DNA of 64,000 bases from the human T2T-CHM13v2.0 reference genome, Homo sapiens, in the NCBI GenBank assembly GCA_009914755.4, contig CP068257.2, positions 256,001 to 320,000 of the forward strand. The letters run 5' to 3'. Shown piece by piece: positions 4,601-59,510 of the stretch. A program made the translations under genes and the position numbers. Position 1 is the stretch's first letter, and the number at the start of each line of letters is the position of its first letter. The notes under the pieces were generated by a model. It was not told the origin of the DNA, did no database searches, and worked only from the letters and a program-made list of their open reading frames with translations.

Positions 4601-4805
4601 GACCTTTCGAGTTTCACTTTTGCATTTTTTGCTCTTTTCGTTGACTTGTCTTGAAAGCTTAAATTCAACTATTTTATTTTTACAGAAATCAGGAATATAA
4701 CTTTTAAAATATATGTCTGTCCTGTCTCACGGTGTTGTGTACTCTTCAGATCTTGTATGAACATAGACTTATATGGGAACAATTAGGTTTTTTGTTTGTT
4801 TGTTT

Positions 4806-22420: not shown

Positions 22421-24388
<1,968 letters not shown>

Positions 24389-39256: not shown

Positions 39257-39439
39257 ATGCATAGGAGTCAGTGCAACAAATGTGCTGCAAATGGAGCCAC
39301 ATAGAGGAAAGGAGCAGCAGGCTCAGGAGCGGGGTGTGTGCCACCTTTGGGGCTCCAGTCCAAGCATCGGGGCTTCTACAGCACTGTGGGCTTCTCGGGT
39401 GCCAAGAGGCAGACCACAGGACATCTTGAGGAGGACTCT

Positions 39440-40145
39440 GGTAAGAGCTTCCTTGGGTATGTGGATGATGTCCAGAATGTTGGCCTGGTGTCCCTGAGAC
39501 AGCACTAACAGGTCCATGACTGGGTCCAGGTCCTGCCTGGGCTGATGGGCAAAGAGCTCACTGACAGTGTGGAAGCATCTATTTTGAAGTAGGATCTATG
39601 TTCAAGTGCAGAAAGAGCCCAATCTTGTAGATGAACCACACAGCCAGCTTCTGGGTGCAGGCACAGTGCCACATTTTTTGTCACTTCCTGATGTGCCCCA
39701 CCAGCACTGAAGAGATAGCCTGGAGACAGGGCAAGAGGAAGGCTGAGAAGGATGAGATGGTGAGTGCCAGATTCTTCCTGGCCCTGAGCTCACCCCCAGG
39801 GTGACGCTCAACTTTTAGGAGTGAGAGAGGAAGATTGATGGCTTCAAGTGCTTCACCAAGAAGATGGACAACAGGGCACTCAGCTCAACTTCACAGCCAA
39901 TGAGTGGCGACAGGCTTTGAGAAAGAGAATCAGAAGCCTGACAGTTCTTCTTCAGCCTCAGCCAGGCCTTGAAGCTGGACCAGGCCATCCACATCAGTAT
40001 AGATGCCTTCCACTCTGTCAGTGAGCTCTTTGCCAGTCAGTCCAGGCAGGACCTGGACCCAGCCATGGACCTGTTAGTGCTGTCTCAGGGACACCAGACC
40101 AACATCCTGGACATCATCCACATACACAAGGAAGCTCTTACCAAA
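39440..40145. repeat. inverted duplication: arms ~39440-39583 and ~39997-40145 (about 90% identical), spacer ~410 bp
   Basis: ggtaagagcttccttgggtatgtggatgatgtccagaatgttggcctggtgtccctgagacagcactaacaggtccatgactgggtccaggtcctgcctgg is the reverse complement of 40040-40145; ORFs 39323..39517(-) and 39969..40247(+) share [24 protein letters not shown]. Confidence 0.8.
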
Positions 40146-40721
40146 GTCACGGAGAACAGGCAACATGTGGCAGAAGGGAAGACAGAGGTGCAGAGGCTGA
40201 TGACGTCAGAATCACAGGAACAGGATTTCTTTGGCCACTTTGGCTGAAATTCACCACTTCCATCCAATTCCAGTGAGAGACATGGACTCACAGATGGAGC
40301 ATTTCTTGCAACAAGAGATACTACTTTTTCAAAAAGTCACCCAGGAATTGATAGTGTTGAATGACTCGATACTCGATCGTGGATGGTTTCCAGTTCAAGG
40401 ATACTTTCTACAGCAGAATAATAATACTAGCAAACAGCTAGTACAAGGACGGTTTTGTGCTCAACTGAAATCCAGCTGAATACAGAATTGTACAGGAAAC
40501 AGTTAATATGGTGATAGAATAGAAACAGTAGCAAACGTGAACTAAATCATACTATGAATGCCTAAACTACTGCTGTAACTTTTGGAAAAATGATAATACC
40601 ACTTTATTGCTTTTCGAAGTATGAATATTTTAGTGTATATGCTCTAGACCTCAAACTCTATAAAGAGTCTCAAAGAAGTTGGCTGGATAAAGCCTGCTGT
40701 GGATGTCTTTATATTCAAAGA

Positions 40722-42623
40722 TTGATGATGCAATTTGAATATGTGTCCCCACCAAATCTCATGTTGAATTATATTTCCTAATGTGGAAGTTGGATCCTGG
40801 TATAAGGTGATTGAATTATGAAGGCAAATTTCTCATGAATGGTTCAGCACCATCCCCTTGTACCATCCTTACAATAATGAGTGACTTCTCATGAGATGTG
40901 GTCACTGAAAACTCTATATCACCTCCCTACTCTCCGTGTTTTCCCCTTGCCATGTGAGACAATTGATTCTTTCTTTGCCTTCCATGATTATTGAAAGATT
41001 TCTGAGGCCTAGAAGCAGAAGCACTCTGCTTAGAACCATGAGCCAATTAAACCTCTTTTTCAAAATAAATCATACAGAAAATGGTAAATGAGGACTGGAG
41101 CATTGCTATAAAGATACCTGGAAATGTGCAACCAGCTTTGGAACCAGGTAATGGAAGGAGGTTGGAAGAGTTTGGAGGGCTCAAAAGAAGACAGATAGAT
41201 GAGAAAACTTTTGGACCATCTTAGAGTCTGGTTCAATGGTTGTGACAAAAATCCTGACAGAAAAATGGACAGTGAAGGCCAGGCTGAGGAGGTCTCAGAG
41301 AGAAATAAGAAGCTTTCTGGAAAATGTCTTCCTTTTGGATATGGAAAGCTTACACAATGCCTGTACCATCATTGTACCTTAGAAGCAGTGGCCTTGCTTT
41401 TTATTTCAGAGACTCATAGGCAAAAGAGACTGTAGCCTTGACCCAGAGGAAACTTTGGACTTTGTAACTTTGAGTTAATCCTGAAATGAGTTAAGACTTT
41501 GGGAGACTGCTGGCAAGGCATGATTATATTTTGCAATGTGAGAAGGACATGAGATTCATGGGGTCAAGGACAAAATATACGGTTTTTCTCTATGTCCTTA
41601 CCAAAACTCACGTGGAATTATATTTTGTAATGTTAGAGGCAAGGTCTAGGTTGAAAAAGATTTAGTCATAAAATGGTGCAGGTAGATACTTCACGAATGA
41701 TAAAGGACCATCACCTTGATGCTATCCTCCTGATAATGAGTGAGTTCTCACGAGATCTGGTTGTTTAACAGATCTCATCCTCCTGCTCCTGCTTTAGGAG
41801 ACATCTCATTGTCCCTTGGCTTTCTGATATAATGAGGAGGCTTCCTGATTCCTCCCAGAAACAGAAGACACTATACTTCCTTCACAGCTTGCAGAACCAT
41901 GAGTCAATTACACCTCTTTTATTTACAATAATACAGAAAATTAGAACTGCAGAGAGGAGCTGTGAAATGTCTTCAAGGCCTTTTTCCCTTTGTTTTGGCT
42001 ATTAGCACAGGGCTTCTTTATATGCAAATTTCTGAAATCTTCTTGAATGTTTCCCCTTAAATGGGATTTTTGTTATTGCTACACAGCCAACCTGCTATAC
42101 AGATTTCTGAAAAAGTAGAAGGAGGCTCAGTAGTGGGTAGCAAACAAAGATTGGAAGGGTTTGGAGGGATTAGATTATGACAGGGAGTGGGAGGGAGTGA
42201 TTTAATCATGCATGGGTGGGGGTGGATGTGGAAGGGAAAAAGGGGTGGGTAGGGTGGGAGGGAGTAGACTGGCTGTACGGTGGTGGGAGGGTGGTGGGTA
42301 GTAGGAAGGGAGAGTATCCTGCTGCAGAGGCAGAGTATCATGGAAAATCCCTCCTAGGGAAGTGCACCTGTGGCTTTGCAGGTTTGAGCCCCAATGGCTG
42401 CTCTCAAGGACTGGACTAGTGTTGAGTGCCTGTAGCTTTTCCACACGGAGGGTGCAAGCTGTTGGTGGGTCTATGAATCTGGGGTCTGGAGGGTGGTGGC
42501 CCCCTGCGTGGGGGCTCCAAGTCCATATTTTCCTTCTGCACTGCCCTAGTAGAGGTTTCCCAAGAATGATTCATCTGCAGCAGGCTTCAGCCTGGAAACA
42601 GTGGGAGGTGGGGGTGGGAGGCA
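40722..42623 (+). mobile_element. leading, less rearranged MaLR copy (unit 0): LTR 40722-41065, 5' internal piece, deletion, 3' internal piece, LTR ~41590-41945, then internal start
   Basis: LTR start tgatgatgcaatttgaatatgtgtccccaccaaatctcatgttgaatt and LTR end ccatgagccaattaaacctctttttcaaaataaatcatacag, then internal 5' (…ccagctttggaaccaggtaatggaaggaggttggaagagtttggagggctcaaaagaagacag…). Confidence 0.7.
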
Positions 42624-45600
42624 GATCCTTCACCAATGGTTAGGCAACATCTTCTTGATGCTGTCCTCATGAAAGTGTGTTCTCATGAGATCTGGTTATA
42701 TAACAGGGTGTGGCACCTCTTTCCTCTCTCAGTCTTGCTTCCACCTCTGCCATTTGAATCATCTCATTGCCCCTTGGCCTTCTGGTATGATTGGAAGGCT
42801 TCCTGATCTGATCCTCCCAGAAGCAGAAGCCACTGTGTTTCCTTTACAGCCTGCTGAACCATGAACCAATTAAACCTCTTTTCTCTATGATCATACAGAA
42901 GATTAGTACTATGAAGTGGAGCCATGAAATGCCTTCCAGGCCCTTTCCCCTTTGTCTTGGCAACCAACACTCAGCTTCTTTTCATGCAAATATCTGAATC
43001 CTTCATGAATTATCCCCCTGAAAATGGACTTTTCTGTTTTACCACATTGCCAGGCTGTGATAAAGATAGCTGACAATGTAGAACCAGGTTCAGAAGTGGG
43101 TAAAAGACAGAGGTCAGAAGAGTTGGGAAAGCTTAGAAGACAGCAAGATGAGGAAAATATTGGACCACTATAGAGAATTGTTAAATACTTGTGATAGGAA
43201 GGCTGACAAAAGTGTAAACACTGAAGTCCAGAACTAAAAGGTCTCAGATGAAAATGAGGAATTTCCTATGAACAGGAGCCAAGATTACATTTGATTGGCC
43301 TTAGCAAAGAAGCTGGCTGCACGGGGACCCTGCCCTGGAGATCTGTGAAACTATGAACTTGGGGGTGATGATTTAGGATGTATCTGGTGAAATGAACATC
43401 TAGGCAGCATAGCACAAGAGGTGTCCTGCCTGCATTGAACAGCCTGTGTTCTTATGGGTGACCTAAGAAGTGACTTCAAGTTGGAACTTCAAGTGGAGAT
43501 CTAAAGTTTGGAAAATTTGGAGCCTGGCTAAGTGGTCAAAAAGAAAAGCCGATTTTGAGGGGGAAAATTCAAGAAGGCTTAAGGTATTTGTATAAAAAGG
43601 AACCCAGTGCATAAAGCCAAGATAGTGGGAAACCGGCCATGAAAGCATTTTAGAGATGTCTGCAGCAGCCCTTGCTGTCACAGGCCCTGGGGCCTAGGAG
43701 AAAAGAATGGTTTCCTAGGCCAGTCCCATGGCCCTGCTGCTGTGCTCAACTGCAGGACACTGCTGCCGGCATCCGTGCAGCTCCAGCACCAGCCATGGCT
43801 GAAAGATGCACAGGTACAGCTTGGGTCATTGCTTCAGAGGTGGCTCAAAGTCTTGATGGTTTCCATATAGTGTTAAGCCAGTAGGTGCACAGAGAAAGAG
43901 ATTAGAGGCTTGAGAACTCCCGTCTAGACTCCAGAAGATGTACAGAAAATCCTGGATGTTCAGGAAGAAGCTTTTCCGAGAGGCAGAGCTTCATGGGGAA
44001 CCTCTACTAGGGGAGCAAAGAAGGGACCTATAGGGTTGAAGCCCCCACACAGGAAGGCATCATTCTCTAAACCCCAGATTCATAGACCCACAAACAGCTT
44101 GCACCCTCAGTGTGGAAAAGCTATGGGCACTTAACAACAGCCCTGTCCATGAGAGACAGCCGCAGAGGCTGAACGCTGCAAAGCCACAGGTGCAGATCTG
44201 CCCAAGGCCTTGGGAGCTCAGCCCTCACAGCACTGTGCCATGGATATGGGACAAGAATTCAAAAATGATGATTTTGGAGCTGTAGCATTAAGTGACTGGC
44301 CTGCTGGGTTTTGGACACTTATGTATCCTATGAGTCATCCATTGCCTGTACAATCATTGTACCTTGGAAGTAGTAAACTTGCTTTATAACTCAGTGGCTC
44401 ATGGGCAGAAGGGACTGTAGACTGGTCTCAGATAAGACTCTGGGCTTTGCGCATTTGAGTAAATGCTGGAATGAGTTAAGATTTGAGAGACTCTAGGGAA
44501 GGCATCATTACATTTTGCAATGTGAGAAAGACATGAACTTTGGGGGACCAGAGACAGAATAATATGTTTTGGCTCTCTGTCTCTACCAAAGCTCATGTGG
44601 AATGTTAATGCGAAATGTTAAAGGTGGGAGCTGGTGGAAGGTGATTTAATCATGGTGGAGAGTGGAGGTTGGATGGTTGGGGGCGCTAGGAGGGTGGGGA
44701 TGGTTGGAGGGAATTGGGGGTGGGGATGGTTGGAGGAGATTGTGGTGGGGTTGGGGATGAAAGGCAGGGGTGGGGGTGGATCCTTCACAAATGGTTAAAC
44801 ACCATCTCCTTAATGCTGTCCTTCTGATAGTGAGTTAACTTCATGATTTTGGAGCTGTGAGATTGAATGAACACTGACGTACTGGATTTTGGATGTCCAT
44901 TGGGCCTGTGGTCCCATTTGTCTTATTTTTCTTGGAAATTTCTTCCCTTTGGATTAAGAAAGTTTACCCAGTACCTGTACCATCATTGTACCTTGAAAGA
45001 AACAAACACCCTTTTAACTTCAGGGACTTATAGGTAGAAGAGACTGTAGCCTTGTCTCAGATGAGACTTAGAACTTTTTACATTTGAGTTAATGCAGGAA
45101 GGAGTTAAGCCTTTTGGAAACTTTTGAAAAGACATGATTGTATTTTATTCTGTGAAAAGGATATGAGATCTAGGGGGTCAAGGTCAGCATAATATGATTT
45201 GGCTGTGTGCCCCTGGAAAAACTCATGTGGAATTGTAATCCCAAATCTTGGAGGTGGGGCCTGGTGGGAGATTATTTAATCATGGATGGGAGGGGTAGGG
45301 GTGGAAGAAAAAAGCGGTGGGTAGGGTGGGGAAGAATAGGCTGGCTGTAGGGCGGTGGGAGGGTGATGGATAGTAGGAAGGGGGAGTAGCCTGCTGCAGA
45401 GGCAGAAGCTCATGGAAAACCTCTACCAGGGCAGTGCACCTGTGGCTTTGCAGGCTTTAGCCCCCATGGCTGCTCTCATGGGCTGGGCTAGTGTTGAGAG
45501 CCTATCACTTTTCCATACTGAGGGTGGGAACTGTTGGTAGGTCTATGAATCTGGGATCTCGAGGATGGTGGCCTCCTGCATAGTCAGTCAAAGCCCTTAT

Positions 45601-45701
45601 TTTCCTTCTGCACTGCCATAGTACAGGATTCCCAAGAGCCTCTGCCTCTGCAGCAGGCTTCTGTCTGGAACAGTAGGAGGTGGAGCTGTGTTGGTGGGTT
45701 G
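42624..45701 (+). repeat. MaLR-derived array unit 1 (3078 bp)
   Basis: Bounded by the recurring ggatccttcaccaatggtta landmark; contains internal region 42700-44540, an LTR 5' part with a G-rich insert, the internal 3' tail and a second LTR 5' part with an inverted internal fragment. Confidence 0.75.
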
Positions 45702-48700
45702 GATCCTTCACCAATGGTTAAGCACCATCTTCTTGATGCTGACCTAGTGATAGTGAGTTCTCATGAGATCTGGTTATATAACGGTGTGGCACCTCTTTCC
45801 TCTCTCAGCCTTGCTCCTACTCCTGCCGTATGAAACATTTCATTGTTGTTTTCCTACTGGTGTGATTGGGAGGCTTCCTGAGTCCTCCCAGAAGCAGAAG
45901 CAGAAGCCACTATGCTTTCTTTACAGCCTGCAGAACCATGAGCCAATTAAACCCCTTTTCATTATGATCATACAGAAAATAAAGTACTGCGAAGTGGAGC
46001 TATGAAATATCTTCAGTGACATTTCCCCATCGTCTTGGCTATTAGCACTGGACTTCTTTTTAATGCAAATATCTGAAGCCGTCTTGAAGTTTCCCCCTGA
46101 AAATGGACTTCTTTTTCTTATACGTTGTCAGGCTGCAACAAAGATAGCTGAAAATGTAAAGCAGATTCAGAAGTGGGTAACAGCCAGAGGTTGGAGAGTT
46201 TGGAGAGCTTGAAAGAAGACAGGAAGATGAAAGAAATTTTGGACCATCGTAGGCACTTGTTGAATAGTTGTGATTAAAAGTCTGGCAGAAGGATAGACAG
46301 TGAAGGCCAGGCTTACAAGGTCTCAGATGAAAATGAGGAAATTACTGGGAACAGGAGCCAAGGTTACTTTTGTTTTGCTGTAGCAAAGAACATGGCTGCA
46401 GGGCGACCTTGCCCTCGAGATCTGTGAAACTTTGAACTTGAGGGTGATGATTTAGTGCATATCTGGTGGAATTAACTTCTAGGCAGCATAGCATAAGGGG
46501 GATTCTGTCTGCATCAAACAGCCTGTGCTCTTGTGTGACTGAGGTTATGCGTGACCGAGGAAATGACCTCAAGTTGGAACTTATATTTAAATGACAAGCA
46601 GAGCTCAAAAGTTTAGAACCATTTGCAGCCTGGCCAAGTGGTCAAAAAGAAAAGCTGATTTTCAGGGGGAAAATTCATGAAGGTTCCAGAAATTTGCATA
46701 AAATGGAGGCCAGTGCTAATAGCCAAGACAATGGGGGAAAAAGCCTTGGAGGCATTTCAGAGATGGTTGCAGCAGCCCTTGGTGTCACAGACCCTGGGGC
46801 CTAGGAGAGAAGAATGGTTTCCGGGGCCAGCCCCATGGCCCTGCTGCTGTGTGCAGCCTCAGGATACTGCTGCCTGCATCCCAGCAGCCGCAGCTCCTGC
46901 TCCGACCTTGGCTGAAAGATGCACAGGTACAGATTGCATCACTGCTTCAGAGGGTACAAGCTATAAGGCTTCACGGCTTCCACATAGTCTTAAGCCAGCG
47001 AGTCCATAGAGCACTAGCCCAGAGGCTTCAGAGCCTTCATATAGATTTTGGAAGATGTATGAAAATGCCTGGATGTCCAGACAGAAAGCTGCCAAAAAAG
47101 CAGAGCCTCCTGGGAAACCTCTACTAGGGCAGTGCAGAAGGAAAATATGGGGTTGGAGCCTCCACACTGGAGGCCACCATCATGCAGACCCCAGATTCAT
47201 AGACCCACCAAGAGCTTTGTACCCTCTGTGGGTAAAAACTACAGGCACTCAACACCAGCAAAGCCCATGAGGGCAGCTGTGGGGACTGAAAACTGCAAAG
47301 ACACAGGTGCAGACCTGCCCAAGGCCTTGGGAGTCCAGCCCTCATGCCCTTGTGCCCTGGATGTGGGAGAAGGATTAAAAAAGGATGACTTTGGAGCTGT
47401 AGGTTTGAGTAACTGGCCTGCTGGGTTTTGGATTTTCCTGGGACCTGTAAGTCCCGTTTGTGTTTCGTTGTTCTCTCTGGCAAAAATCTTCCTTTAGGGT
47501 GGGAATTCTTACTCAATGCCTGGACAATCATACCTTGGAAGTAGTTAACTTGCTTTGTATTTCAGAGGCTCAGGAGCAGAAGGGACTGCATCTTTGTCTC
47601 AGATGAGACTTTGGGCTTCAGACATTTAAGTAAATGCTGGAATGAGTTAAGACCTTGGAGGTCTTAGCCAAGACGATGGGGAAAAGTCAATGAAGGCATT
47701 TTCATAGCTTCACTTCACAGTACTAATTTTCTGTATGATCATAACAAAAAGGGGTTTAATTGGCTGATGGTTCTGCAGGCTGTAAAAAAAAGCATAGTGG
47801 CTTGGGGAATGGTAAGTAAGGCATCACTGTATTTTGCAAAGTGAGAAGGACATGAGATTTGGGGAGGCAGGGACAGAATAAGATTCTGCTGTGTGTCCCT
47901 ATGGAAACTCATGTGGAATTGTAATGAGAAGTGTTAAAATTGGGGCCAGGTGGAAGATGATTTAATCATGGAGGGCACTGGGTGTTGGAAGGTGGAGATT
48001 GGGGAGGATGGGTGGATTACGCTGGTGGTGAGGGGTGAAAAGTGGGGGTGGGGGGGATCCCTCACAAATAGTTAAACACCATCTCCTTAATCCTTTCCTC
48101 ATGATGGTGATTCTCGTGATAGTTTTGGAGCTGTGAGATTTAATGGATACTGGCCTCCTGGGTTTTGGACTTGCATTGGCCCTGCGATCCCATTTGTGTT
48201 ATTTTCCTGGCAAACCTCTACCCTTTGGATTGAGAAAACTTACCCAATGCCTGTACCATCATTGTACCTTGAAAGAAAAGAACTCCCTTTTAAATTCCGG
48301 GACTTATAGGCAAAAGGGACTGCAGCCTTTTCTCAGGTGAGACGTGGAACTTTTTACATTCGAGTTAATGCTGAAATGACTAAAGACTTTTGGCAACTTT
48401 TGAAAAGGCATGATTGTATTTTACTCTGTGAGAAGGATATGATATTTGGGGGATCAGGGTCAGAATAATATGGTTTAGCTGTGTGTCCCTACCTAAACTC
48501 ACATGTAATTGTAATCCCGAATGTTGCAGGTGGAGCCTGGTGGGAAGTGATTTATTCATGGATGGGAGAGGGGTGGGGTTGGAAGTAAAAACAGATGGGT
48601 AAGGTGAGGAGGAGTAGGCTGGCTGTAGGGTGGGGTGTAGCAGGAAGGGAGTAGCCTGCCACAGAGGCAGAGGCTCATGGAAAACCTCTACTAAGGCAGT

Positions 48701-48959
48701 GCACCTGTGGCTTTGCAGGGTTTAACACCTGCTGCTGCCCTCATGGGCTGGGCTGGTGTTGAGTGCCTGTAGCTATTCCATACCGGGGGTGTGAGCTGTT
48801 GGTGGGTCTATGACTCTTGGGTCTGGAGGATGGTGGCGTGGGGGCTCCAAGCCCATATTTTCCTTCTGTACTGCCCTAGTAGAGGTTTTCCAAGGGGATC
48901 TGTCTCTGCCTCAGGCTTCTGCTTGGAAACAGTGGGTGGTGGATATGGGGAGGTGGGCG
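45702..48959 (+). repeat. MaLR-derived array unit 2 (3258 bp)
   Basis: Same architecture as unit 1; roughly 10-20% diverged from units 1 and 3 by eye. Confidence 0.75.
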
Positions 48960-51900
48960 GATCCTTCGCCAATAGTTAAGCACAATCTTCTTGATGCTGA
49001 TCTCCTGATAGTGAGCTCTCATGAGATCTAGTTGTATAACAGGATGTCTCACCTCTTTCCTCTCTCTGTCTTGCTTCTACTCCTGCCATATGAAACATTT
49101 CATTGCCGCTTTGCCTTTTGGTATAATTGGGGGGCTTCCTGAGTCCTCCTACAAGCAGAAACCACTATGCTTTCTTTACAGCCTGAAGAACTGTGCGTCA
49201 ATTAGACCTCTTTTCTTTATGTAGATACAGAAAATTAATGCTGTGAAGTTATGAAATGACTTCTAGGCGTTTCCCCCATTCTCTTGGCTATTAGCATTGA
49301 GCTTTTTTCAATGCAAATATTGGAGGCCATCTTGATGTTTCCCCTGATAATGGACTTTTCTTCTTTTACCACATTGCCAGGCTGCAACAAAGATAGCTGA
49401 CAGTGTAGAAGCAGGTTCCAAATTGGGTAGTGGCCAGAGGTTAGAGAGTTTGGAGAGCTTGGAAGAAGACAGGAAGATGAGGGAAAGTTTGGACGATTGC
49501 AGAGACTTGTTAAATAGTTATGATTAAAAGGCTGACAGAGGATGGATACTGAAGGCCAGGCTTGTAAGGTCTCAGATGAAAATGAGGAACTTACTGGGAA
49601 AAGGAGCCAAGGTTTTTCTGTTTTGCCTTAGCAAAGTAATTGGCTACACAGTGACCCTTCCCGGGAGATCTGTGAAGCTGAACGTGAGGGTGATGATTTA
49701 GGGTGTATCTGGTGGAATGAACTTCTAAGCAGCAAAGCTCAAGAGTTGTCCGGCCTACGTCGAACAGCCTGTGCTCCTATGTGTGATGAAAGAAATGACC
49801 ATAAGTTGGAACTTATATTTAAATGAGAAGCAGAGCTTCAACATTTGGAAAATTTGTAATCTGGACAAATGGTCAAAAAGAAAAGCTGATTTTCAGGGGG
49901 AAAATCAAGAAGCCTTCGGATATTTGCATAAAAAGGAGCCCAGTGCTAATAATTCAAGACAATGGGAAAAAGGCCTTGAAGGCGTTTCAGAGACCTTTGT
50001 AGCAGCCCTTGCTGTCACTGGCCCTGGGATTTAGGAGAAAAGAATAGTTTCCTGGCCCAGCCCCATGGCTCCAGTGCTGTGTGCAGCCTCAGGACACTGC
50101 TGCCTGCATCCCTGCAGCTCCCTTTCCAGCTCCAGCCATGGATGAAAGATGCACAGGTACAGCTTGTGTCATGCTTCAGAGGATGCAAGCTCCAAGCCTT
50201 GGTGGCTTCCACATAGTGTTAAGCCAGCAGGTGCATAAAGCACAGGACTAGAAGCTTCAGAGCCTTGTCTGGACTCCAGAGGATATATCAGAAATCCTGA
50301 GTGTCTAGCCAGAAGCTTTTCCAAGAGGCAGAGCCTCATGGTTAACCTCTACTCGGGCAGTACAAAAGGAAAGTATAGGGTTGGAGTCCCCATACAGGGA
50401 GGCACCATTTTCCAGACCCCAGTTTCATAGACTCACCAGCTGCTTGTACCCTTAGTGTTGAAAAGCTACAGGCACTCAACACCAGCCTAGCCAATGAGGG
50501 CAGCTGTAGGGGGAAAATTCTGCAATGCCACAGGTGCAGAGCTGCCCAAGGCCTTGGGATCCCAGCCATCACACCACCCTGTGCTCTGGATGTGGACATA
50601 GATTCCAAAAAGATGATTTGGAGCTGTATGATGGAATGACTGGCCTGCTGGGTTTTTGACTTGCAGGGGATTTGTAAGTCCCGTCTGTGTTTTGTGCTTC
50701 TTTCTGGGAAATTTCTTCTTTTTGGCTTGGAATGCTTACCCAATGCCTGTACAATCATTGTAACTTGGAAGTGGTTAACTTGCTTTGTATTTCAGAGGCT
50801 CAGGCCAGAAGATATGACAGCCTTGTCTCAGAGGAGACTTTGGCCTTTGGACATTTGAGTAAATGCTGGGATGAGTTAAGATTTGGGGGACTCTAGGGAA
50901 GGCATCATTGCATTTTGCAATGTGAGAAAGACCTGAACTTTGGGGGACCAGGGACAGAATAATATGTTTTTGCTCTGTGTCTCTACCAAAACTCATGTAG
51001 AATTTTAATGGGAAATGTTAAAGGTGGGGGCTGGTGGAAGGTGATTTAATTATGGTGAAGAGTGGAAGTTAGATGGTTAGGGGGTTGGGGAGGGTTGGGG
51101 AGATTAAGGGGTGGGGAGGGTAGGGGGGATTGTGGTGGGGTTGGGGGTGAAAGACAGGGGTGGGGGGTGGATCCTTCTCAAATGGACATTTGAGTAAATG
51201 CTGGAATGAGTTCAGACATTGGGGGACTGTAGAGAATGCATCATTGTATTTTGCAGTATGAGAAGGATGTGATCTTGGGGGGCCAAAGGGAGAATAATAT
51301 GATTTGTCTCTGTGTCCCTACCAAAACTCATGTGGAATTATAATGGGGAATGTTAAGTATGGGGCTTGGTAGAAGGTGATTTAATCATGGTAGAGAATGG
51401 GGGTTGGAAGGGGGATGTGGGAGAATGGAGGTTCATGGTGTGGGTGAGGGTGAAACATGGGGATGGGTGGCAGATCCTTCACAAATGGTTAAATACTATC
51501 TCCTGAATGCAGTCTGTGTGATAGTGAGTTCTCATGATAAATGAATGCTGTCCTGCTGGGTTTTGGAGCCAGATTGGGCCTGTGTCCCATTTGTGTTATT
51601 TTTCTGGGAAAACCTTCCCTTTGGTTTGAGAAAGCCTACCCAGTGCCTGTGCCATCATTGTAACTTGAAAGAAAAGAATTGTCTTTTACATTCAGGGACT
51701 CATAGGCAGAAGGGATTGCAGCCTTCTCTTGGATGAGACTTGAACTTACTACATTTGAGTTACTGCTGGAATGAGTTAAGACTTTTTGAAACTTTTGAAA
51801 AGACATGTTTGTATTTTTCTGTGTGAGAAGGACATGAGATGTGGGGGTGTCAGGGTCAGGATAATATGGTTTGGCTGTGTTTCCCTACAAAAACTCATGG

Positions 51901-52371
51901 GGAATTGTATTCCTGACAGTTGTAGGTGGGGCCTGGTGGGAGGTGATTTAATCACAAATGGGAGGTTGGTAGGGGTGGAAGGGAAAACAAATGGGTAGGA
52001 TGGGGAGGAGTAGGCTGGCAGTAGGGTGGTGAGAGTTTCGTGGGCAGTAGTAAGGGGGAGTAGCCTGCTGCAGAGGCAGAGCCTCATGGAAAACCTCTAC
52101 CAGGGCAGTGAACCTATGGCTTTGCAGGGTGTAGCCCCCATGGCTGCCCTCATAGGCTGGGCTGTTGTTGAGTGCCTGTAGCTTTTCCATACTGAGAGTG
52201 CAAGCTGTTGGTGAGTCTATGAATCTGGGGTCTGAGGATGGTAACCTCCTGTGTGGGGCCTCCAAGCCCATATACTTTTTCTGCTCTGCCCTATTAGAGG
52301 TTTTCCTAGTGGCTCTGCCTCTGCCTCAGGCTTCTGCCTGGAAACAGTGAGGGGTGTGGGTGGTAGGGGGC
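48960..52371 (+). repeat. MaLR-derived array unit 3 (3412 bp; carries an extra ~300-bp duplication of the G-rich/LTR segment near 51000-51480)
   Basis: Landmarks at 48960 and 52372; duplicated segments ggtggatccttctcaaatgga (51166) and ggcagatccttcacaaatggttaaatac (51470). Confidence 0.75.
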
Positions 52372-55300
52372 AGAACTTTCACCAATGGTTAGGCAACATC
52401 TTCTTGATACTGACCTTGTGATAGTGAGTTCTCAGGAAATCTGGTTGTATAACAGGGTTATACAACGTGTGGCACCTTTTTCCTCTCTCTGTTTTGTTTC
52501 TACTTCTGCCATATAAAACATCCCATTCCTGCTTGGTTTCTGGTATGATTGGGAGGCTTCCTGAGTCCTCCCAGAAGCAGAAGCCTCTATGATTTATTTA
52601 AAGCTTGCAGAACCATGAGCCAGTTCAACCTCTTTTCTTTCAGATTATATAGAAAAATAATGCTATAAAGTGGAACTATGAAATGCCTTCAAGGCCTTTT
52701 TCCTATTCTCTTGGCAATCAGCACTCAGCTTCTTTTCAGGCAAATATGTGAAGCCTGCATTAATTTTTCTCCTGAAATGGACTTTTCTTCTTTTACCACA
52801 TTGCCAGGCTGTGACAAACGTAGCTGAAAATGTAGAAGCAGGTTGAGAAGTGTGTAATGGCCAGAGGTTGGAGAGTTTGGAGGTCTTGGAAGAAGACAGG
52901 AAGATGAGGAAAAGTTTGGATCAGTGTAGAGACTTGTTAAATAGTTATAATTAAAAAGGTGACAAAAGGATGGACAGTGATCACCAGGCTTAGAAGGTCT
53001 CACATGAAAATGAGGAGCTTGCTGGGAACAGGAGTCAAGGTCACTTCTGTTTTTTCCTTAGCAAAGAATGTTGCTGCACAATGCCCCTAACCTGGAGACC
53101 TGTGAAATTTTGAACATCAGGGTGATAATTTAGAGTGTATTTTGTGGAATGAAATTTTAGGCAGCAAAGCTTAAGAGGTGTCCTGTCTGTTTCGAACAGC
53201 CTGTGGTCCTATATGTGACAAAAGAAATGACCTCAAGGTTAAACTTGTATTTAAATGAGAAGGAGAGCTTAAAAGTTTGCAAAATTTGAAGCCTGGCCAA
53301 GTGGCCAAAAAGAAAAGCTGATTATCAGTGGGAAAGTTCAAAAAGTCTTCAGAAATGTGCATAAAAAGGAGTTCAGTGCTAATAGCCAATACAATGTTAA
53401 AAAGGTCTTGAAGGCATTTCAGAGACTTTTGCAGCAGCCCTTGCTATCACAGGCCCTGAGGCCTGGGAGAAAAGAATGGTTTCCGTCTCCAGCCCCATGG
53501 CCCCGCTGCTATGTCCATCCTCAGGACACTGCTGGCTGCATTCCTGAGGCTCCAACTCCGGCCTTGGGTGAAAGATGCACAGGTACAGCTTGGGTCACTG
53601 CTTCAGAGGGTGCAAGCTGCAAGCCTTGGTGGCTTCCACATAGTGTTAAGCCAGCAGGTGCACAGAGCACAAAACTAGAGGCTGGGGATCCTTTGTCTGG
53701 ACTACAGAGTATGTATGGAAAAACCTTGGTGTCCAGGTGGAAACTTTTCCAAGAGGCAGAGCCTCCTTTACTTAGGCAGTACAGAAGGAACATATACGTT
53801 TGGAACCCCATACAGGGAGGCAGCATTCTGCAAACGCCAGATTCATAGACTCACTAGCAGCTTGCACCCTGATTGTGGAAAAGCTATAGGTACTCCACAA
53901 CAGCCCAGCCCATGAGGGCAACTGGGGAGGTTAGACCCTGCAAAGTCACAGATGCAGACCTGCCCAAGGCCTTGGGATCCCAGGCCTCATACCCTTGTGC
54001 TCTGGATATGGGATCTGGATTCAAGAAAAGTGATTTGGAGCTGTAGGAATCAATGACTGGCCAGTTGGGTTGTTGACTTTTATGGGGTCTGTAAGTCCCA
54101 ACTGTGTTTTGTACTTCTTTCTGGCAAATTTCTTCCTTTTGGCTGGGAATACTTACCCATGCATGTACAATCATTGTACTTTGGAAGTGCTTGCTTTGTA
54201 TTTCAGAGGCTCAGGGGTAGAACATATGGCAGCCTTGTGTCAGAAGAGACTTTGGGCTTTGGACATTTCAGTAAATGCTGGAATGAGTTAAGAGATTGAG
54301 AAACTGTAGAGAAGGCATCATTGAACTTTGCAGTGTGAGAACAACATGAGATATGAGGGCCAGGGTCAGAATAATATGATTTGGCTCTGCATCCCTACCA
54401 AACTCATGTGGAATTGTAATGGGGAATGTTGAAGGTGGGGTCTGGTGGGAGGTGATTTCATAATGGAGAAGCATGGGGTTTGGAGGTAGGGCTGTGGGGA
54501 GAATGGGGGAGATTATTTTGTGGGTGGGAGTGAAAGATGAGGGTGGGGGTGCAGATCCTTCACAAATGGGTAAACACTATCTCCTTAATGCTGTTCACAT
54601 GACAGTGAGTTCTCTTGATGATGTTGGAGCTGTGAGATTGAGTGAATACTGTCCTGATGGGTTTTGGACTTGCATTGGGCCTGTGGGCCCATTTGTGTTA
54701 TTTTTCTGGGAAATCTCTTCCCTTTGGACTGAGAAATCTTACACAATGCCTCTACCATCATTGTACCTTGAAAGAAAAGAACTCCATTTTAAATTCAGAG
54801 ACTCATAGGCAGAAGGGACTGTGGCCTTATCTCAGATGAGACTTTGAATTTTTTACATTCGGAGTGAGTTAAGACTTTTGCAAACTTTTGAAAAGTCATG
54901 ATTGTATTTTGCTCTGTGATAAGGACATGAGATTCTGAAACATCAGGGTCAGAATTATATGGTTTGCCTGTGTGTCCTTATGAAACTCATGTGGAATTAT
55001 AATCCCTAATGTTGAAGCAAGTGACTTAATTATGGACAGGAGATTGGTGGTGATGGAAGGTAAAAGGGATGGGTAAGATTGAGAGGAGTGGGTTGGCTGT
55101 AGGGTGTTTGGAGGGTGGGGGGTAGTAGGAAGGGGGAGTAGCCTGCTGCAGAGGCAAAGCCTCATGGAAAACCTCCACTAGGGAAGTGCACCTGTGGCTT
55201 TGCAGGTTTTAGCCCCTCAGCTGTTCTCCTGGGCTGGGCTGGTATTGAGGGCCTGTAGCTTTTCCACACTAAGGGCGTGAGTTTGTGCGTCTATGAATCT

Positions 55301-55444
55301 GGGATCTGGAGGTTGGTGGCCACCTGTGTGGGGGCTCCAAGCCCATATTTTCTTTCTGTACTTCCATAATAGAGGTTTTCTAAGAGGTTCTGCATCTGAA
55401 GGAGGCTTCTGCCTGGAAACAGTGGGAGTTGGGGGTGTGGGGCG
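52372..55444 (+). repeat. MaLR-derived array unit 4 (3073 bp)
   Basis: Landmarks at 52372 and 55445. Confidence 0.75.
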
Positions 55445-58334
55445 GATCCTTCACCAATGTTTAAGCACCATCTTCTTGATGCTGACTTTGTGATAGTGAG
55501 TTCTCATGAGATCTGCTTGTATAATGCAGCATGACAACTTTTTCCTTTCTCTGTCTTGCTCCTACTCTTGCCATATGAGACATCTCCTTGCCCCTTGACA
55601 TTCTGGTATGATTGGGAGGCTTCCTGTGTTTTGTCAGATGCAGAAGTCATCATGCTTCCTTACAGCCTGCAGAATCATTAACCAATTAAACCTCTTTTCT
55701 TTGTGATCATTGAGAAAATTATGACTGCAAAGTGGATCTATTAAGTGTCTTCAAGGCCTTCTCCCTAACGTCTTGGCAATCAGCACTCAGCTTCTTTTCA
55801 CTCAAGTATCTGAAGCCTCCTTGACTTCTTCCCCAGAAAATGGGCTTGTCTTCCTTTACCACATTGCCAGCCTGCAACAAAGATAGCTGATAATGTAGAA
55901 GCAGGTTCAGAAGGGGGTAGCAGATGGAGTTTGGGAGAGTTTGGCGGACTTCAAAGACAGGGAGATGAGGGAAAGTTTGGATCTTTGTAAAGAATTGTTA
56001 AATACTTGTGATCAGAAGGCTCACAGGAAAATAGACAGTAAGGATCAGATTGAGAAGCTCTGAGATGAAAAGGAGGAACTTACTGCAAACAGGAGCCAAG
56101 GTTACTTTTGTTTTGCTGTAGCAAAGAACGTGGCTGCACAGTGACCCTGCCCTGGAGATCTGTGAAACTTTGAACTTGAGGGTGATGACTTACTGAGTAT
56201 CTGGTGGAATGAACTTCTGGGCAGCAAAGCTCAAGGGGTGTCCTGTCTGTATCAAATAGCCTGTGCCCTTATGTGTGACTGAGGAAATGACATCTGGATG
56301 GGTCTTACATTAAATCAGTCCCAACTCTTATATTATATGAGAAACAGAACTCAAAAATTTGCAGCCTGGCCAAATGGTCAGAAAGAAAAGCTCATTTTCA
56401 GGGGAAAACTGAGGAAGGCTTCAGAAATTTGCATGAAAAGGAGCCCAGTGCTAATAGCCAAGACAATAGGGAAAAGGCCTTGAAGCCATTTCAGAAACCT
56501 TTGCAGCAGCCCTTGCTATCATAGGCTCTGGGGCCTCAGAGAGAAGAATGGTTTCCTGGGCCAGTTCCATGACCCCCCTCTATATGCAGCCTCAGGACAC
56601 TGCTGCCTTCATCCCTGCAGTTCTAGCTCCAGCCATGGCTAAAAGATGCACAGGTACAGCTTGCATCACTGCTTCAGGGGTGCAAGCTTCAAGGCTTGGT
56701 GGCTTCCACATAGTGTTAAGCCAGCAGCTGCACAGAGCACATAACTAGACGCTTGCAAGCCTTTGTCTAGACTCCAGAGTATGTACGGAAAAACCTGGCT
56801 GTTCACACAGAATCTTTTCCGAGGCAGAGCCTCACGGGAAACTTTTACTAGGGCAGTACAGAAGGAGCATTTAGGGCTGGAGTCCCTAAATATGGAGGCA
56901 CCATTCTCCAGACTCCAGATTCATAGACCCACCAACAGCTGGCACCCTTAGTATGGAAATGCTACAGGCACTCAACATCAGCCCAGCCCATGAGGGCAGC
57001 TGCGGGGGATAGACCCTGCACAGCCACAGGTGCAGAGCTGCCCAAGGCCTTGGAAGCCCAGGCATCACACACCTGTGCTCTAGATGTGAGATGTAGATTC
57101 AGAAAAGATGATTTGGAGCTATAGGATTCAATGACTGGCCTGCTGGGTTTTTGACTTGCATGGGGTCTGTAAGTCCTTGTACATTTCAGTAAATGCTGGA
57201 ATGAGTTAAGTCATTGGGGGACAGTAGAGAAGTCATCAGTGTATTTTGCAGTGTGACAAGGATACAAGATTTGGGGAGCAAGAGCCAGAATAATATGATT
57301 TGATTCTGTGTCCCTACCAATGCTCATGTGGAATTGTAGTGGGGAATGTTAAAGGTGGGACCTGGTGGGAGGTGATTTAATCATGGAGAAGAGTGGGTGT
57401 TGGAGGTAGGGGTGTGGGGAGAATGGGAGAGATTATTTTGTGGGTGGGAGTGAAAGATGAGGGTGGGGGGCAGATTCTTCACAAATGAGTAAACATTATC
57501 TCCTTAATGCTGTCCGCACGACAGTGAGTTCTCTTGATGATTTTGGAGCTGTGAGATTGAGTAAATACTGTCCTGCTGGGTTTTGGACTTGCATTTGTGT
57601 TATTTTTCTGGGCAACTTCTTCCCTTTGGATTGAGAAGCCTTACCCAATGACTGTTGTACCTTGAAGGAAAAGAAATCCCTTCTAAATTCAGGGACTCAT
57701 TGGCAGAAGGGACTGTAACCTTGTCTCAGATGAGACTTTGAAATTTTTACATTCGGAATGAGTTAAGACTTTTGGAAACTTTTGAAAAGGCATGATTGTG
57801 TTTTGCTCTGTGAGAAGGACATGAGGTTCTGGGGAATCAGGGTCAGAATAATATGGGTTGGCTGTTGGCTGTGTGTCCCTATAAAACTCATGTGTCATCC
57901 TTAATGTTGGAGGTGGGCCAGGTGGGAAGTGACTTAATCTTGGATGGGAGGGGGTTGGGGTGGAAGGAAAAGGAGGGATAGTGTGGGGAGGAGTAGGTTG
58001 TCAGTAGGGTGGTGTGAGGGTGGGAGTAACCTGCTGCAGAGGCAGAGGCTCATGGGAAACCTCTACTAGGAGAGTGCACCTGTGGCTTTGCAGGGAGTAA
58101 CCCCCACAGCTGCTCTCATGGGCTGGGTTGGTGTTGAGTGCCTGTAGCTTTTCCATACTGAGAGTGTGAGCTGTTGGTGGGCTTATTAATCTGGAGTCTG
58201 GAGGATGGTGGCCTCTTGTGTGGGGGCTCAAAGCCTCTATTCTCCTTCTGCACTGCCATAGTGGAAGTTTCCTAAGAGGTTCTGCCTCTGCAGGAGGCTT
58301 CTGCCTGGAAGCAGTGGGCAGTGGTGTGGTTGGA
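55445..58334 (+). repeat. MaLR-derived array unit 5 (2890 bp); followed by a 168-bp partial unit that ends abruptly at minisatellite copy B
   Basis: Landmarks at 55445 and 58335; the LTR piece …ctcattgccgcttggccttctgatatggttaggagg joins directly to ggcctgatcagtg…. Confidence 0.75.
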
Positions 58335-58502
58335 GAATCCTTCACCATTGGTGAGTCTTCTTGATGCTGATCTCCTGATAGTGAGTTCTCATGTGATCTG
58401 GTTGTCTAACAGGATGTCACACCTCTTTCCCCTCTCTGTCTTGCTCCTACTCCTGCCATATGAAACATCTCATTGCCGCTTGGCCTTCTGATATGGTTAG
58501 GA

Positions 58503-59315
58503 GGGGCCTGATCAGTGTGGGCCTGCTCAGTGGACCTACTCAGCTGGGACTTGTCAGTGAGGCCTATTTAGTGGGGGTGGTCAGCAGGGGTCTGCTTAGA
58601 GCGGGTGTCATTAGAGGGATCTAGTAGTGCATGTCTTGGTGAGTGGGTTGATAGTGGCAGACAAATGTTTGGTGTCTGGTCAGTGCCAACCTGGGCTGTG
58701 GGACTCGGTCAGTGGAGACCTTGTCAGCTGGGGCTTAGTGGTGGCCTTGTCAGATTGGGCTGGGTTACTGGTGACTAGGTCAAGGGGCGCTATTCAGTGG
58801 AGGCCTGGTGACATGGGACCTAGTCAGCAGAGACGCTTATCAGTGGGGCCCTGGTCAGGGCAGGCTTGTCCGTGGAACTTAATCAGTGGGGGCCTGGTCA
58901 GAGAGGACTTGATCAGTGGTGGCTTTTGTAGCACTGGTCTACGGGTTGACCTGGTCAGCGGGGATCTGAGCAGTGCGTGCCTGTTCAGTGGGGCGTAGTC
59001 ATTAGGATCCCAGTCAGGGGCATCTTGTCACCTCAGGCCTGGTTAGCAGGGGCCTGGTCACTGGCTGTCTATTCCCTGCAGGCCTGGTCCGTGGGGCTTC
59101 GTCTGTGGGACCAGAAAATGGGGTCATGATCGGTGGAACCTGATCAGTGAGGCCTTGTCAGTAAGGTCCTCGTCAGTGGAGTCCTGGTCATTGTGGGCCT
59201 GGCAGCGGGAATCTAGTTAGTGAGGCCTGGTGATGGGGCTCTAATCAGTGAGGGTGTGGTCAGGGAGGAAGTGATATGCTGGATCTGGTCACCAGGGACC
59301 TGGTCAGTGGGGGCT
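58503..59315. repeat. degenerate ~15-18-bp minisatellite (GGSCYTGRTCAGTGG-like), copy B, same orientation as copy A
   Basis: …ggcctggtgacatgggacctagtcagcagagacgcttatcagtggggccctggtcagggcaggcttgtccgtggaacttaatcagtgggggcctggtcagagaggacttgatcagtgg…. Confidence 0.8.
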
Positions 59316-59510
59316 GCTGAGTACTGCTGGGAGATGTCAGGGGAAATGCATGTTATCGAGGAGCCTGTGGACAGCTGGGGTGGCCCAGTCGTGTTCAATG
59401 GCCCACTCAAAAGTGGACAAAGCAGGTGTTTTGATGGACCTGGGAGATCTTGCTCAGAGATTCTGACAGGACAAAGGTAAAGGAAGGGCCAGAGTGGTCG
59501 GAGAGATAGT

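What the first reader, a model, noticed from the sequence alone, without database searches (positions are those of the whole stretch)
40722..58502. Macrosatellite-like array (about 3.1-kb period, at least 5 copies) built from a scrambled THE1/MST MaLR element
The landmark ggatccttcaccaatggtta recurs at 42624, 45702, 48960, 52372, 55445 and 58335. A second landmark, gatccttcacaaatggttaaacac, recurs at ~44790, 48060, 51470, 54560 and 57475. Each unit is a rearranged LTR-internal-LTR element of the ERVL-MaLR THE1/MST type: a partial LTR, ~1.6 kb of internal sequence, an LTR 5' part interrupted by a G-rich insert, the last ~350 bp of internal sequence, then another LTR 5' part carrying an inverted internal fragment. 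Copies differ from each other by an estimated 10-20%, so the amplification is old. The less scrambled copy at 40722-42623 looks like the progenitor end of the array. MaLR elements normally occur as dispersed single copies or solo LTRs. A kilobase-period tandem amplification of a composite unit resembles human macrosatellites, so array length is probably copy-number polymorphic, and the array may be heterochromatic.
Basis: partly seen in the sequence, partly recalled or inferred. Interest (0 to 1): 0.7.

Follow-up and report, generated by a model that had tools for sequence, protein, structure and literature searches.

The report
Known MaLR "LTR array" megasatellite copy
The region really is a ~17.8-kb tandem array of five-plus ~3.1-kb units built from rearranged MST/THE1-type retrotransposon pieces, but it is an old, decayed member of the "LTR array" megasatellite family already described in the human genome in 2008, so it is ordinary rather than new.

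Summary
Window 40723-58511 holds a left MaLR remnant, a truncated early unit (U0), five full units of 2.9-3.4 kb and a partial sixth. All are colinear and all share the same rearrangement junctions.

Units are 79-82% identical (non-CpG K2P about 0.21). CpG o/e is 0.10. There is no ORF over 143 aa in the ancestral monomer, no conserved island, and no exact in-register run over 43 bp.

The family is already published: Warburton et al. 2008 (PMC2588610) describe "LTR arrays", ~3.5-kb MSTA/THE1/MSTA-int monomers in 25 arrays on 9 chromosomes. Their two family-specific primers each occur once per unit here, mostly exact, with the expected half-unit spacing.

A scan with one primer found 46 contigs in human-associated metagenomes. 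They match specific window units at up to 97.8% and share the monomer order, the U0/U1 junction and the truncated right end with its flank. So the array was dispersed as a block after its monomers had diverged.

Its inference of copy-number polymorphism is unsupported for this decayed copy.

Verdict: already known, low interest.

The parts
40723..41312 (+). Left-edge MaLR remnant: a full-length LTR without insert (40723-41101), then internal 5' pieces (about int 8-89 and 164-304).
   Evidence: It is 76% identical to the array LTR consensus and 73% to LTR_b. It carries the only DUX4-type motif in the window.
41313..42622 (+). U0, a truncated, earlier-diverged unit. It comprises internal 3' end plus LTR_b (41577-41928, no G-rich or fold-back insert), an inverted internal fragment (about 41947-42095) and internal 5' up to 42187. 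It then jumps into LTR position ~75, the G-rich insert and the fold-back of the first full unit.
   Evidence: It is 79-81% identical to the ancestral monomer and equidistant from modules A and B (79.9% and 79.1%). The 42187 junction is spanned by contigs L001, L010, L020 and L039.
42623..45700 (+). Unit 1 (3078 bp).
   Evidence: Primer 2A site at 43801.
45701..48958 (+). Unit 2 (3258 bp), the exemplar for anatomy: LTR 3' part 45701-45965; inverted internal fragment 46018-46135; internal 46203-47664 and 47802-47878; LTR 5' (module A) 47878-47974; G-rich insert; LTR 101-150 with landmark 2 at 48055; internal 3' (module B) 48118-48465; LTR 5' 48468-48561; G-rich insert; fold-back 48646-48927.
   Evidence: Primer 2B at 45382 and primer 2A at 46914, both exact.
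47654..47801 (-). Unit-2-specific 147-bp insertion, an inverted copy of 45904-46041 at 90% identity. It is a younger secondary rearrangement.
48959..52371 (+). Unit 3 (3413 bp). It contains an extra A-type sub-repeat (303 extra alignment columns at 51167-51470; internal 3' plus LTR 5' at 51183-51390).
   Evidence: The extra piece is absent from paralogue L007.
52372..55443 (+). Unit 4 (3072 bp).
   Evidence: Primer 2B at 52056 and primer 2A at 53570, both exact.
55444..58334 (+). Unit 5 (2891 bp). It lacks 166 bp of internal sequence at 57177.
   Evidence: Primer 2B at 55134 (exact) and primer 2A at 56641 (1 mismatch).
58335..58511 (+). Partial unit 6. The array ends inside the LTR (about LTR position 285) and abuts a minisatellite.
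   Evidence: The boundary is spanned by paralogous contigs L003, L004, L034, L036 and L043.
58502..59330 (+). Right-flank degenerate ~15-bp minisatellite (GGCCTGGTCAGTGG-like). It is co-duplicated with the array.
37071..37540 (+). Upstream block of the same degenerate minisatellite motif. This is context only, not part of the array.
39969..40479 (+). Sorting-nexin (SNX9/18/33-type) BAR-domain pseudogene fragment just left of the array, with an inverted partial duplicate (39434-39595 against 40148-39987, 91%).
   Evidence: (PF10456, E=9.9e-25).

Best explanation
This is one copy of the published human 'LTR array' megasatellite family (Warburton et al. 2008). It is a relic tandem array whose ~3.1-kb monomer is a mosaic of MST/THE1-class ERVL-MaLR LTR and internal fragments in both orientations.

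Most likely history:
1. MaLR sequence inserted and was rearranged in the genome. An inverted internal fragment replaced the LTR end and the first ~160 bp of internal sequence. The 'internal 3' end + LTR 5' part' module was duplicated (modules A and B).
2. A first duplication gave U0 and a proto-unit.
3. The proto-unit LTR acquired a G-rich expansion and a fold-back copy of internal sequence.
4. The unit was amplified stepwise, by unequal exchange or replication slippage between neighbouring direct repeats, to at least 5 copies. This happened roughly 45-70 Myr ago.
5. The whole block, with both truncated ends and its flanks, was later copied to other loci by segmental duplication.

Since amplification the units in this copy have decayed independently. 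It has no coding capacity and no detectable sequence constraint, and it is too diverged to recombine unequally at any appreciable rate. It is best read as non-functional, with a probably fixed unit number.

Shown: the anatomy, shared junctions, divergence pattern, family membership and paralogues. Inferred: the molecular mechanisms of rearrangement and amplification, the absolute dates, and the lack of function.
For: Ladder and colinearity.

E-values reach 0, with 1.5-kb alignments.

Published description matches: ~3.5-kb monomers of MSTA and THE-1 LTR plus MSTA-int fragments in both orientations, 25 arrays, several with 5 units and 17.0-17.8 kb.

Published family primers: 2A is found at 43801, 46914, 50144 and 53570 (exact) and at 56641 (1 mismatch). 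2B is found at 45382, 52056 and 55134 (exact) and at 42310, 48647 and 58022 (1-2 mismatches). All are on the + strand, at about 1.5 and 1.6-1.9 kb alternating spacing.

Age and decay: non-CpG K2P is 0.196-0.235 between units and 0.10-0.12 to the consensus. CpG o/e is 0.10 and the longest exact in-register run is 27-43 bp.

Stepwise amplification: divergence rises with unit separation (slope 0.009, bootstrap CI 0.0033-0.0144; physical order in the top 3.3% of permutations).

Composite predates amplification: in the ancestral monomer, modules A and B are 82.9% identical, and the inverted and fold-back fragments are 89-90% identical to their in-unit source. Each unit has one A-type and one B-type module.

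U0 is the pre-insertion state.

No constraint or coding: the identity profile is 0.71-0.88, the longest consensus ORF is 143 aa, and it has no Pfam hit.

Dispersal after divergence: 46 contigs from human-associated metagenomes match a specific unit (mean 90.9% in register against 81.8% out of register, maximum 97.75%). They show the same monomer order (L007, L027), the same right end and flank (L034 and others) and the same U0/U1 junction.
Against: No Dfam or RepeatMasker run was possible.

The genomic locus and species of the window are not identified. No contig is ≥99% identical to it, so membership is shown by sequence signatures, not by coordinates.

The observed period is 2.9-3.4 kb against the published '~3.5 kb'. 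This copy lacks the 6-monomer higher-order repeat and the LTR6A insertion of the 13q/18p/21q arrays.

Absence of function, and of copy-number variation, is inferred from sequence decay and not measured.
Confidence: 0.93

Rival explanations
1. It is a live macrosatellite or VNTR. On this view the array still undergoes unequal crossing-over, so its unit number is polymorphic in the population, as at D4Z4, DXZ4 or RS447.
For: It has a kilobase-scale tandem organisation. Warburton et al. inferred ongoing unequal crossing-over in the large higher-order arrays on 13q, 18p and 21q, and saw presence/absence variation on acrocentric chromosomes. Paralogous contigs show unit-scale structural differences (L016, L018; L007 lacks the U3 extra piece).
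Against: Units here are only 79-82% identical. There is no exact in-register run over 43 bp. By established knowledge, this is far below the ~130-300 bp of uninterrupted identity that mammalian homologous recombination needs. The tree is near star-like and the identity profile is uniform with no homogenised tracts. FISH showed no variation on non-acrocentric chromosomes.
Confidence: 0.06
2. It arose as a single-step concatemer. On this view the multimeric, scrambled structure was made at once, by template switching during reverse transcription or by a rolling-circle-type event, and was integrated as an array.
For: The unit phylogeny is nearly star-like. Fold-back and inverted fragments are typical template-switch products.
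Against: In the ancestral monomer the A and B modules were already 17% diverged, and the inverted fragments 10-11% diverged from their source. So the DNA that was amplified was genomic sequence that had already decayed. U0 branches off well before the other units. Divergence increases significantly with physical separation, as expected for stepwise local duplication.
Confidence: 0.05
3. It is a cluster of independent or nested MaLR insertions that only mimics periodicity.
For: MaLRs are abundant and often nested. The left-edge element (40723-41312) may be an independent insertion, being 73-76% identical to the other LTRs.
Against: All composite junctions, including non-canonical ones (truncated LTR to inverted internal fragment; fold-back inside the LTR), recur in the same order in all five units. 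Alignments run colinearly across whole units.
Confidence: 0.01
4. It is an assembly artefact, a mis-assembled repeat.
For: None specific.
Against: Units differ by ~20%, so they assemble uniquely. Independent contigs from other assemblies reproduce multi-unit stretches in the same order (L007 over 8.7 kb, L027 over 5.8 kb).
Confidence: 0.01

Closest known systems
'LTR arrays', the MaLR megasatellite family of Warburton et al. 2008 (BMC Genomics 9:533, PMC2588610)
   Same: The tandem monomers are made entirely of MSTA/THE1 LTR and MSTA-int fragments in both orientations. Both published family primers are present once per unit with half-unit spacing. The array size and unit number (about 17.8 kb, about 5 units) match the small arrays of their Table 3. 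The array has many paralogues and co-duplicated flanks.
   Different: The measured period is 2.9-3.4 kb, not ~3.5 kb. There is no 6-monomer higher-order repeat and no LTR6A insertion, which mark only the 13q11, 18p11.21 and 21q11.2 arrays. The exact locus is not identified. The 4p11 entry is 17,792 bp against about 17,789 bp here, which is a lead only.
Classical human macrosatellites (D4Z4, DXZ4, RS447/USP17, TAF11-like, CT47)
   Same: They have kilobase-scale units in head-to-tail arrays. TAF11-like and RNU2 units also contain LTR fragments.
   Different: By established knowledge, those have near-identical units, are strongly copy-number polymorphic, are often CpG-rich, and often carry a gene per unit. 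Here the units are ~80% identical, CpG o/e is 0.10, and there is no ORF over 143 aa.
Tandem LTR-int-LTR-int-LTR proviral arrays made by unequal recombination between the LTRs of one element
   Same: Direct LTR or internal-3' repeats within the unit are the likely substrates for the amplification. The units are joined through LTR sequence.
   Different: The unit is not LTR plus one internal region (about 1.95 kb for a MaLR). It is a rearranged 3.1-kb mosaic with two LTR-5' modules, an inverted fragment and a fold-back.
Dispersed MSTA/THE1 ERVL-MaLR elements and solo LTRs
   Same: The sequence content is the same.
   Different: The arrangement is tandem and block-duplicated, not single insertions. 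The canonical LTR 3' end, the primer-binding site and the first ~160 bp of internal sequence are missing from every unit.

Membership tests
LTR-array MaLR megasatellite (Warburton 2008) | Head-to-tail array of ~3.5-kb monomers | tested here: met
   There are five full units of 2891-3413 bp plus partial units at both ends, with a colinear ladder.
LTR-array MaLR megasatellite (Warburton 2008) | Monomer composed entirely of MSTA/THE-1 LTR and MSTA-int fragments in both orientations | tested here: met
   essentially the whole unit is tiled by + and - strand matches to MaLR LTR and internal consensus sequences, apart from the G-rich expansions.
LTR-array MaLR megasatellite (Warburton 2008) | Conserved family primer sites 2A/1A and 2B/1B, once per unit, splitting the unit into two halves of ~1.7 kb | tested here: met
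   2A occurs 5 times (4 exact) and 2B occurs 6 times on the + strand (3 exact). Alternating spacings are about 1.5 kb and 1.6-1.9 kb. At most 0.03 matches are expected by chance.
LTR-array MaLR megasatellite (Warburton 2008) | Multiple paralogous arrays embedded in interrelated segmental duplications | tested here: met
   46 contigs match at 79-97.8%. Monomer order, both internal boundaries and the right flank out to 62356 are shared. Their human origin is inferred from the sample type (human skin and other human-associated metagenomes).
LTR-array MaLR megasatellite (Warburton 2008) | Six-monomer higher-order repeat marked by LTR6A (13q, 18p and 21q subset only) | tested here: not met
   the only unit-specific insertions are 147 bp and 303 bp, both of array origin; no pair of units is closer than 82.4%. 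This feature defines a subset, not the family.
LTR-array MaLR megasatellite (Warburton 2008) | Location at one of the listed loci (mostly pericentromeric) | not testable with these tools
   No reference-genome search is available. The size agrees with the 4p11 entry (17,792 bp) within a few bp, and also roughly with 9q22.33 and 8p11.1.
Polymorphic macrosatellite / VNTR | High inter-unit identity maintained by ongoing unequal exchange | tested here: not met
   identity is 79-82%, the longest exact run is ≤43 bp, and the profile is uniform with no homogenised tracts.
Polymorphic macrosatellite / VNTR | Unit number varies between individuals | not testable with these tools
   This needs population long-read assemblies. 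The published FISH survey saw no presence/absence variation on non-acrocentric chromosomes, but FISH cannot count units.
ERVL-MaLR (MST/THE1) retrotransposon sequence | LTR of ~370-420 bp starting TG, a ~1.6-kb non-coding internal region ending in a polypurine tract next to the 3' LTR | tested here: met
   internal positions 164-1689 align over 1.5 kb. The purine-rich end abuts the LTR 5' TGATATGG-like start. The LTR 5' and 3' parts align to an MSTA-like consensus better than to THE1B.
ERVL-MaLR (MST/THE1) retrotransposon sequence | Target-site duplication flanking the insertion | not testable with these tools
   The right end of the array is truncated inside an LTR, so no matching pair of ends exists.

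The most novel reading that the evidence does not exclude
This small array has no higher-order repeat and no LTR6A insertion, and it still carries the pre-insertion U0 copy. It may preserve the founder architecture from which all ~25 human LTR arrays derive, including the large polymorphic acrocentric and pericentromeric ones. It might even be the ancestral locus. If so, the step-by-step birth of a transposon-derived megasatellite could be reconstructed from it. The steps would be rearranged MaLR, first duplication, fold-back insertion, stepwise amplification, and then block dispersal.
Probability: 0.12. Interest if true: 0.3.

Novelty: already known. Interest (0 to 1): 0.12.

Why it matters
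It matters little beyond annotation. The finding independently rediscovers, and dissects in somewhat finer detail, a repeat family published in 2008.

The added detail is: the order of rearrangement events; a pre-insertion relic unit; isolation by distance among units; and evidence that the array was dispersed as a block after its monomers had diverged. These points are useful for anyone studying how transposable elements seed large tandem repeats, or how pericentromeric segmental duplications spread. They do not open a new question.

For genome scanning it is a useful calibration case. A striking kilobase ladder of LTR fragments in a primate genome is likely to be a copy of this family. The two published primer sequences are a quick diagnostic.

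Tried and rejected
1. TRF cannot detect the array because its longest period here is 500. Self-BLAST was used instead.

2. DUX4 platform idea: MaLR LTRs are DUX4 targets (PMC3836709). Rejected.

3. Coding potential: the longest ORF in the reconstructed monomer is 143 aa and has no Pfam match. ORFs in individual units are not conserved. Rejected.

4. Conserved island or recent gene conversion: the identity profile is flat at 0.71-0.88. Rejected.

5. A larger duplication bracketing the array, suggested by the same minisatellite motif at 37.1 and 58.5 kb: the flanks share only short motif matches. Rejected.

6. Higher-order repeat or LTR6A: not present.

7. The genome-contig scan with primer 2A gave 3 hits in bacterial MAGs with no further similarity, which is chance for a 19-mer.

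8. Later literature on the family under other names: searches for macrosatellite+THE1, MaLR+tandem array, LTR arrays+MSTA and MSTA-int+tandem found nothing beyond Warburton 2008. [quoted passage not shown] This could not be tested here because no motif was available.

9. Locus identification: not possible with these tools. No contig was ≥99% identical to the window.


Full report
OBSERVATION.
- Landmark 1 is on the + strand at 42623, 45701, 48959, 52372, 55444 and 58335, with 0-3 mismatches and none expected by chance.
- Landmark 2 is at 44779, 48056, 51473 and 54554. A fifth copy at 57474-57497 carries 4 mismatches.
- A self-BLAST of the window gives the predicted ladder: colinear alignments of 2.1-3.4 kb, and up to 5.4 kb with permissive scoring, at offsets of about 3.1, 3.3, 3.4, 6.4, 6.7, 9.8 and 12.8 kb and 77-80% identity.
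- Cut at landmark 1, the units are 3078, 3258, 3413, 3072 and 2891 bp, followed by a 177-bp partial sixth unit.
- TRF as configured (period ≤500) does not see the array.

ANATOMY. No Dfam or RepeatMasker is available here. I therefore built a 3113-bp majority consensus of the five units. That makes the labels a lead, but the alignments are far beyond chance: 1.5 kb at 71% with E=0, and LTR parts at 74-85%.

Starting at landmark 1, the unit reads:
- LTR positions ~101-367.
- An inverted copy of internal positions ~708-566.
- Internal positions 164-1689, ending at the polypurine tract.
- LTR 3-96 (module A, together with the preceding internal 3' end).
- A G-rich insert.
- LTR ~101-150, which contains landmark 2.
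- Internal 1361-1689 followed by LTR 3-96 (module B).
- A second G-rich insert.
- A fold-back made of internal 1020-1075 (+ strand) followed by internal ~1300-1016 (- strand).
The unit then returns to LTR 101.

The LTR parts fit the MSTA-like consensus better than THE1B. Mapping the whole window shows the same series of junctions in every unit. That excludes independent insertions.

DIVERGENCE AND DECAY.
- Units are 79.2-82.4% identical.
- Non-CpG Kimura distances are 0.196-0.235 between units and 0.10-0.12 to the consensus. CpG observed/expected is 0.10.
- The tree is nearly star-like, but distance rises with physical separation: adjacent 0.202, separation of 3 or more 0.222. The slope is 0.009 per unit, with bootstrap CI 0.0033-0.0144. 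The true order is in the top 3.3% of the 120 possible orders. This favours stepwise local duplication over a single burst.
- Mean K2P of 0.21 gives about 48 Myr at 2.2e-9 per site per year, and 70-88 Myr at slower rates. These dates are inference.
- Identity along the unit is flat (0.71-0.88 in 100-column windows). The only unit-specific insertions are 147 bp (47654-47801) and 303 bp (U3, 51167-51470), both derived from array sequence. The 147-bp one is an inverted copy of 45904-46041 at 90%, hence younger.
- The longest ORF in the reconstructed monomer is 143 aa, with no Pfam match.
- The longest exact in-register match between any two units is 27-43 bp. By established knowledge, mammalian homologous recombination needs roughly 130-300 bp of uninterrupted identity. 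This copy is therefore a poor substrate for unequal crossing-over.

HISTORY BEFORE AMPLIFICATION. In the reconstructed ancestral monomer, modules A and B are only 82.9% identical. The inverted and fold-back fragments are 89-90% identical to their source inside the same unit. Every unit contains one A-type and one B-type module. The mosaic was therefore assembled, and had decayed appreciably in the genome, before it was amplified. This argues against a concatemer produced in one reverse-transcription event.

The left edge has two parts.
- 40723-41312 is a MaLR LTR with no insert plus internal 5' pieces. It is 73-76% identical to the other LTRs and may be a separate element.
- 41313-42622 (U0) runs colinearly through the diagnostic junctions: truncated LTR, inverted internal fragment, then internal 5'. 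It lacks the ~390-bp G-rich plus fold-back insert. It is 79-81% identical to the consensus, against 86-92% for true units. Its module is equidistant from A and B.
U0 is therefore an earlier-diverged, pre-insertion relative.

On the right, the array stops inside an LTR at about 58503-58511. It abuts a degenerate 15-bp minisatellite.

COMPARISON WITH WHAT IS KNOWN. Warburton et al. 2008 (PMC2588610) catalogued human tandem arrays over 10 kb. [quoted passage not shown] MSTA-ints in both orientations'. They report 25 'LTR arrays' on 9 chromosomes covering ~460 kb, embedded in interrelated segmental duplications. Small arrays are listed at 4p11 (17.8 kb, 5 units), 8p11.1 (17.0 kb, 5 units) and 9q22.33 (17.5 kb, 5 units). 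Large arrays on 13q11, 18p11.21 and 21q11.2 have a six-monomer higher-order repeat marked by LTR6A.

Their Methods give the family-specific probe primers. In the window:
- Primer 2A (GAAAGATGCACAGGTACAG) occurs once per unit, four times exact and once with one mismatch.
- Primer 2B (GGGAGTAGCCTGCTGCAGAGG) occurs once per unit on the + strand, three times exact and three times with 1-2 mismatches.
- The spacing splits the unit into two halves, as published.
This is a direct, positive membership test. The window array spans about 17.8 kb with 5.3 units. It has no higher-order repeat and no LTR6A, so it is one of the small arrays. The 4p11 entry (17,792 bp) matches its length within a few bp, but I could not map the window.

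RELATED SEQUENCES. A scan of metagenome contigs for primer 2B returned 46 contigs from human skin and other human-associated metagenomes. I presume these are host DNA. All of them align to the array.
- Best identities run from 78.7% to 97.75%, with a median of 92.4% and none ≥99%.
- Each contig matches a particular window unit far better than the other units: mean 90.9% in register against 81.8% out of register.
- L007 (8.7 kb) follows U1 to U4 at 95-96% and lacks the U3-specific extra piece. L027 follows U1 to U3 at 94.7%.
- L034 crosses the right end and continues to 62356 at 92.3%. L003, L004, L036 and L043 also cross it.
- L001, L010, L020 and L039 cross the U0/U1 junction.
- L016 and L018 show unit-scale rearrangements.
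Hence the monomers had already diverged, and both ends had been fixed, before the block was dispersed. The flanks travel with it, and U0 is not unique to this locus.

The left flank also carries a sorting-nexin BAR-domain pseudogene fragment (PF10456, E=1e-24) with inverted partial duplicates. This is typical of duplicated, pseudogene-rich sequence.

MECHANISM AND FUNCTION. The best-supported reading is a non-functional relic. A genomic mosaic of MaLR pieces was amplified stepwise by unequal exchange or slippage between its own direct repeats. It was then frozen, decayed, and was later copied around by segmental duplication. The rearrangement and amplification mechanisms and the dates are inferred. 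The order of events is shown by the sequence comparisons above.

It applies, if anywhere, to the large higher-order arrays. Heterochromatin status is untested.

A DUX4-binding idea was checked and rejected.

VERDICT. The structural interpretation is correct, while the polymorphism and novelty claims are not. The feature is already known as a member of the published LTR-array family, so interest is low. The most novel reading still open is that this architecture, with its U0 relic, is close to the founder state of the whole family (probability about 0.12).

Noticed in passing
window 22727-24388: There is a 64-bp minisatellite of 26 copies at 97% identity (unit AGAAAGGGATAGGGCTGAAGAACACAGGTCGCTGCATTTAGAAAGGAGGCGGGGTCAGAGGAAT), strongly G/A-skewed, directly next to an Alu-like repeat (22419-22726). 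It is much more homogeneous than the LTR array, so it is a better VNTR candidate.
   Followed up: no
window 37071-37540 and 58502-59330: Two blocks of the same degenerate ~15-bp minisatellite (GGCCTGGTCAGTGG-like) lie 21 kb apart, and the second directly abuts the array's truncated right end. The flanks share nothing else. The right block is co-duplicated with the array in paralogous contigs.
   Followed up: partly
window 38927-40479: A sorting-nexin (SNX9/18/33-type) BAR-domain pseudogene fragment (PF10456, E=9.9e-25) lies immediately left of the array. It has two inverted-repeat pairs: 39434-39595 against 40148-39987 at 91%, and 38927-39022 against 39265-39170 at 87.5%. This indicates a palindromic rearrangement.
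   Followed up: partly
window 47654-47801 (source 45904-46041): A 147-bp inverted duplication is specific to unit 2. It is 90% identical to its source, so it is about half the age of the array amplification.
   Followed up: yes
window 61452-62141: There is a weak ~270-bp-offset tandem duplication (61452-61872 against 61722-62141, 68% identity) in the GC-rich right flank, where GC is 0.50-0.57 across 58-64 kb.
   Followed up: no
loci L001-L046 (metagenome contigs): Forty-six contigs in public human skin and other human-associated metagenome assemblies are copies of the LTR-array family, presumably human host DNA left in the assemblies. None is ≥99% identical to the window. So either this exact locus was not sampled, or the window is from a different haplotype or species.
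   Followed up: partly
L016 and L018 (contigs) relative to window 46.9-54.1 kb: Paralogous arrays differ structurally from the window. L016 jumps from 49455 to 52230, leaving about 2.8 kb missing. L018 contains an inverted 1.8-kb segment. L007 lacks the ~330-bp extra sub-repeat of unit 3.
   Followed up: partly
window 1-36000: The upstream 36 kb is AT-rich (GC 0.28-0.42). It contains many ~300-bp Alu-like repeats that are 70-80% identical to each other (for example at 4786, 6863, 7632, 13587, 21755, 22419 and 26740). An L1 ORF2/3'-like sequence lies at the window start. These indicate a primate source. The L1 and Alu assignments are by eye and from memory.
   Followed up: no
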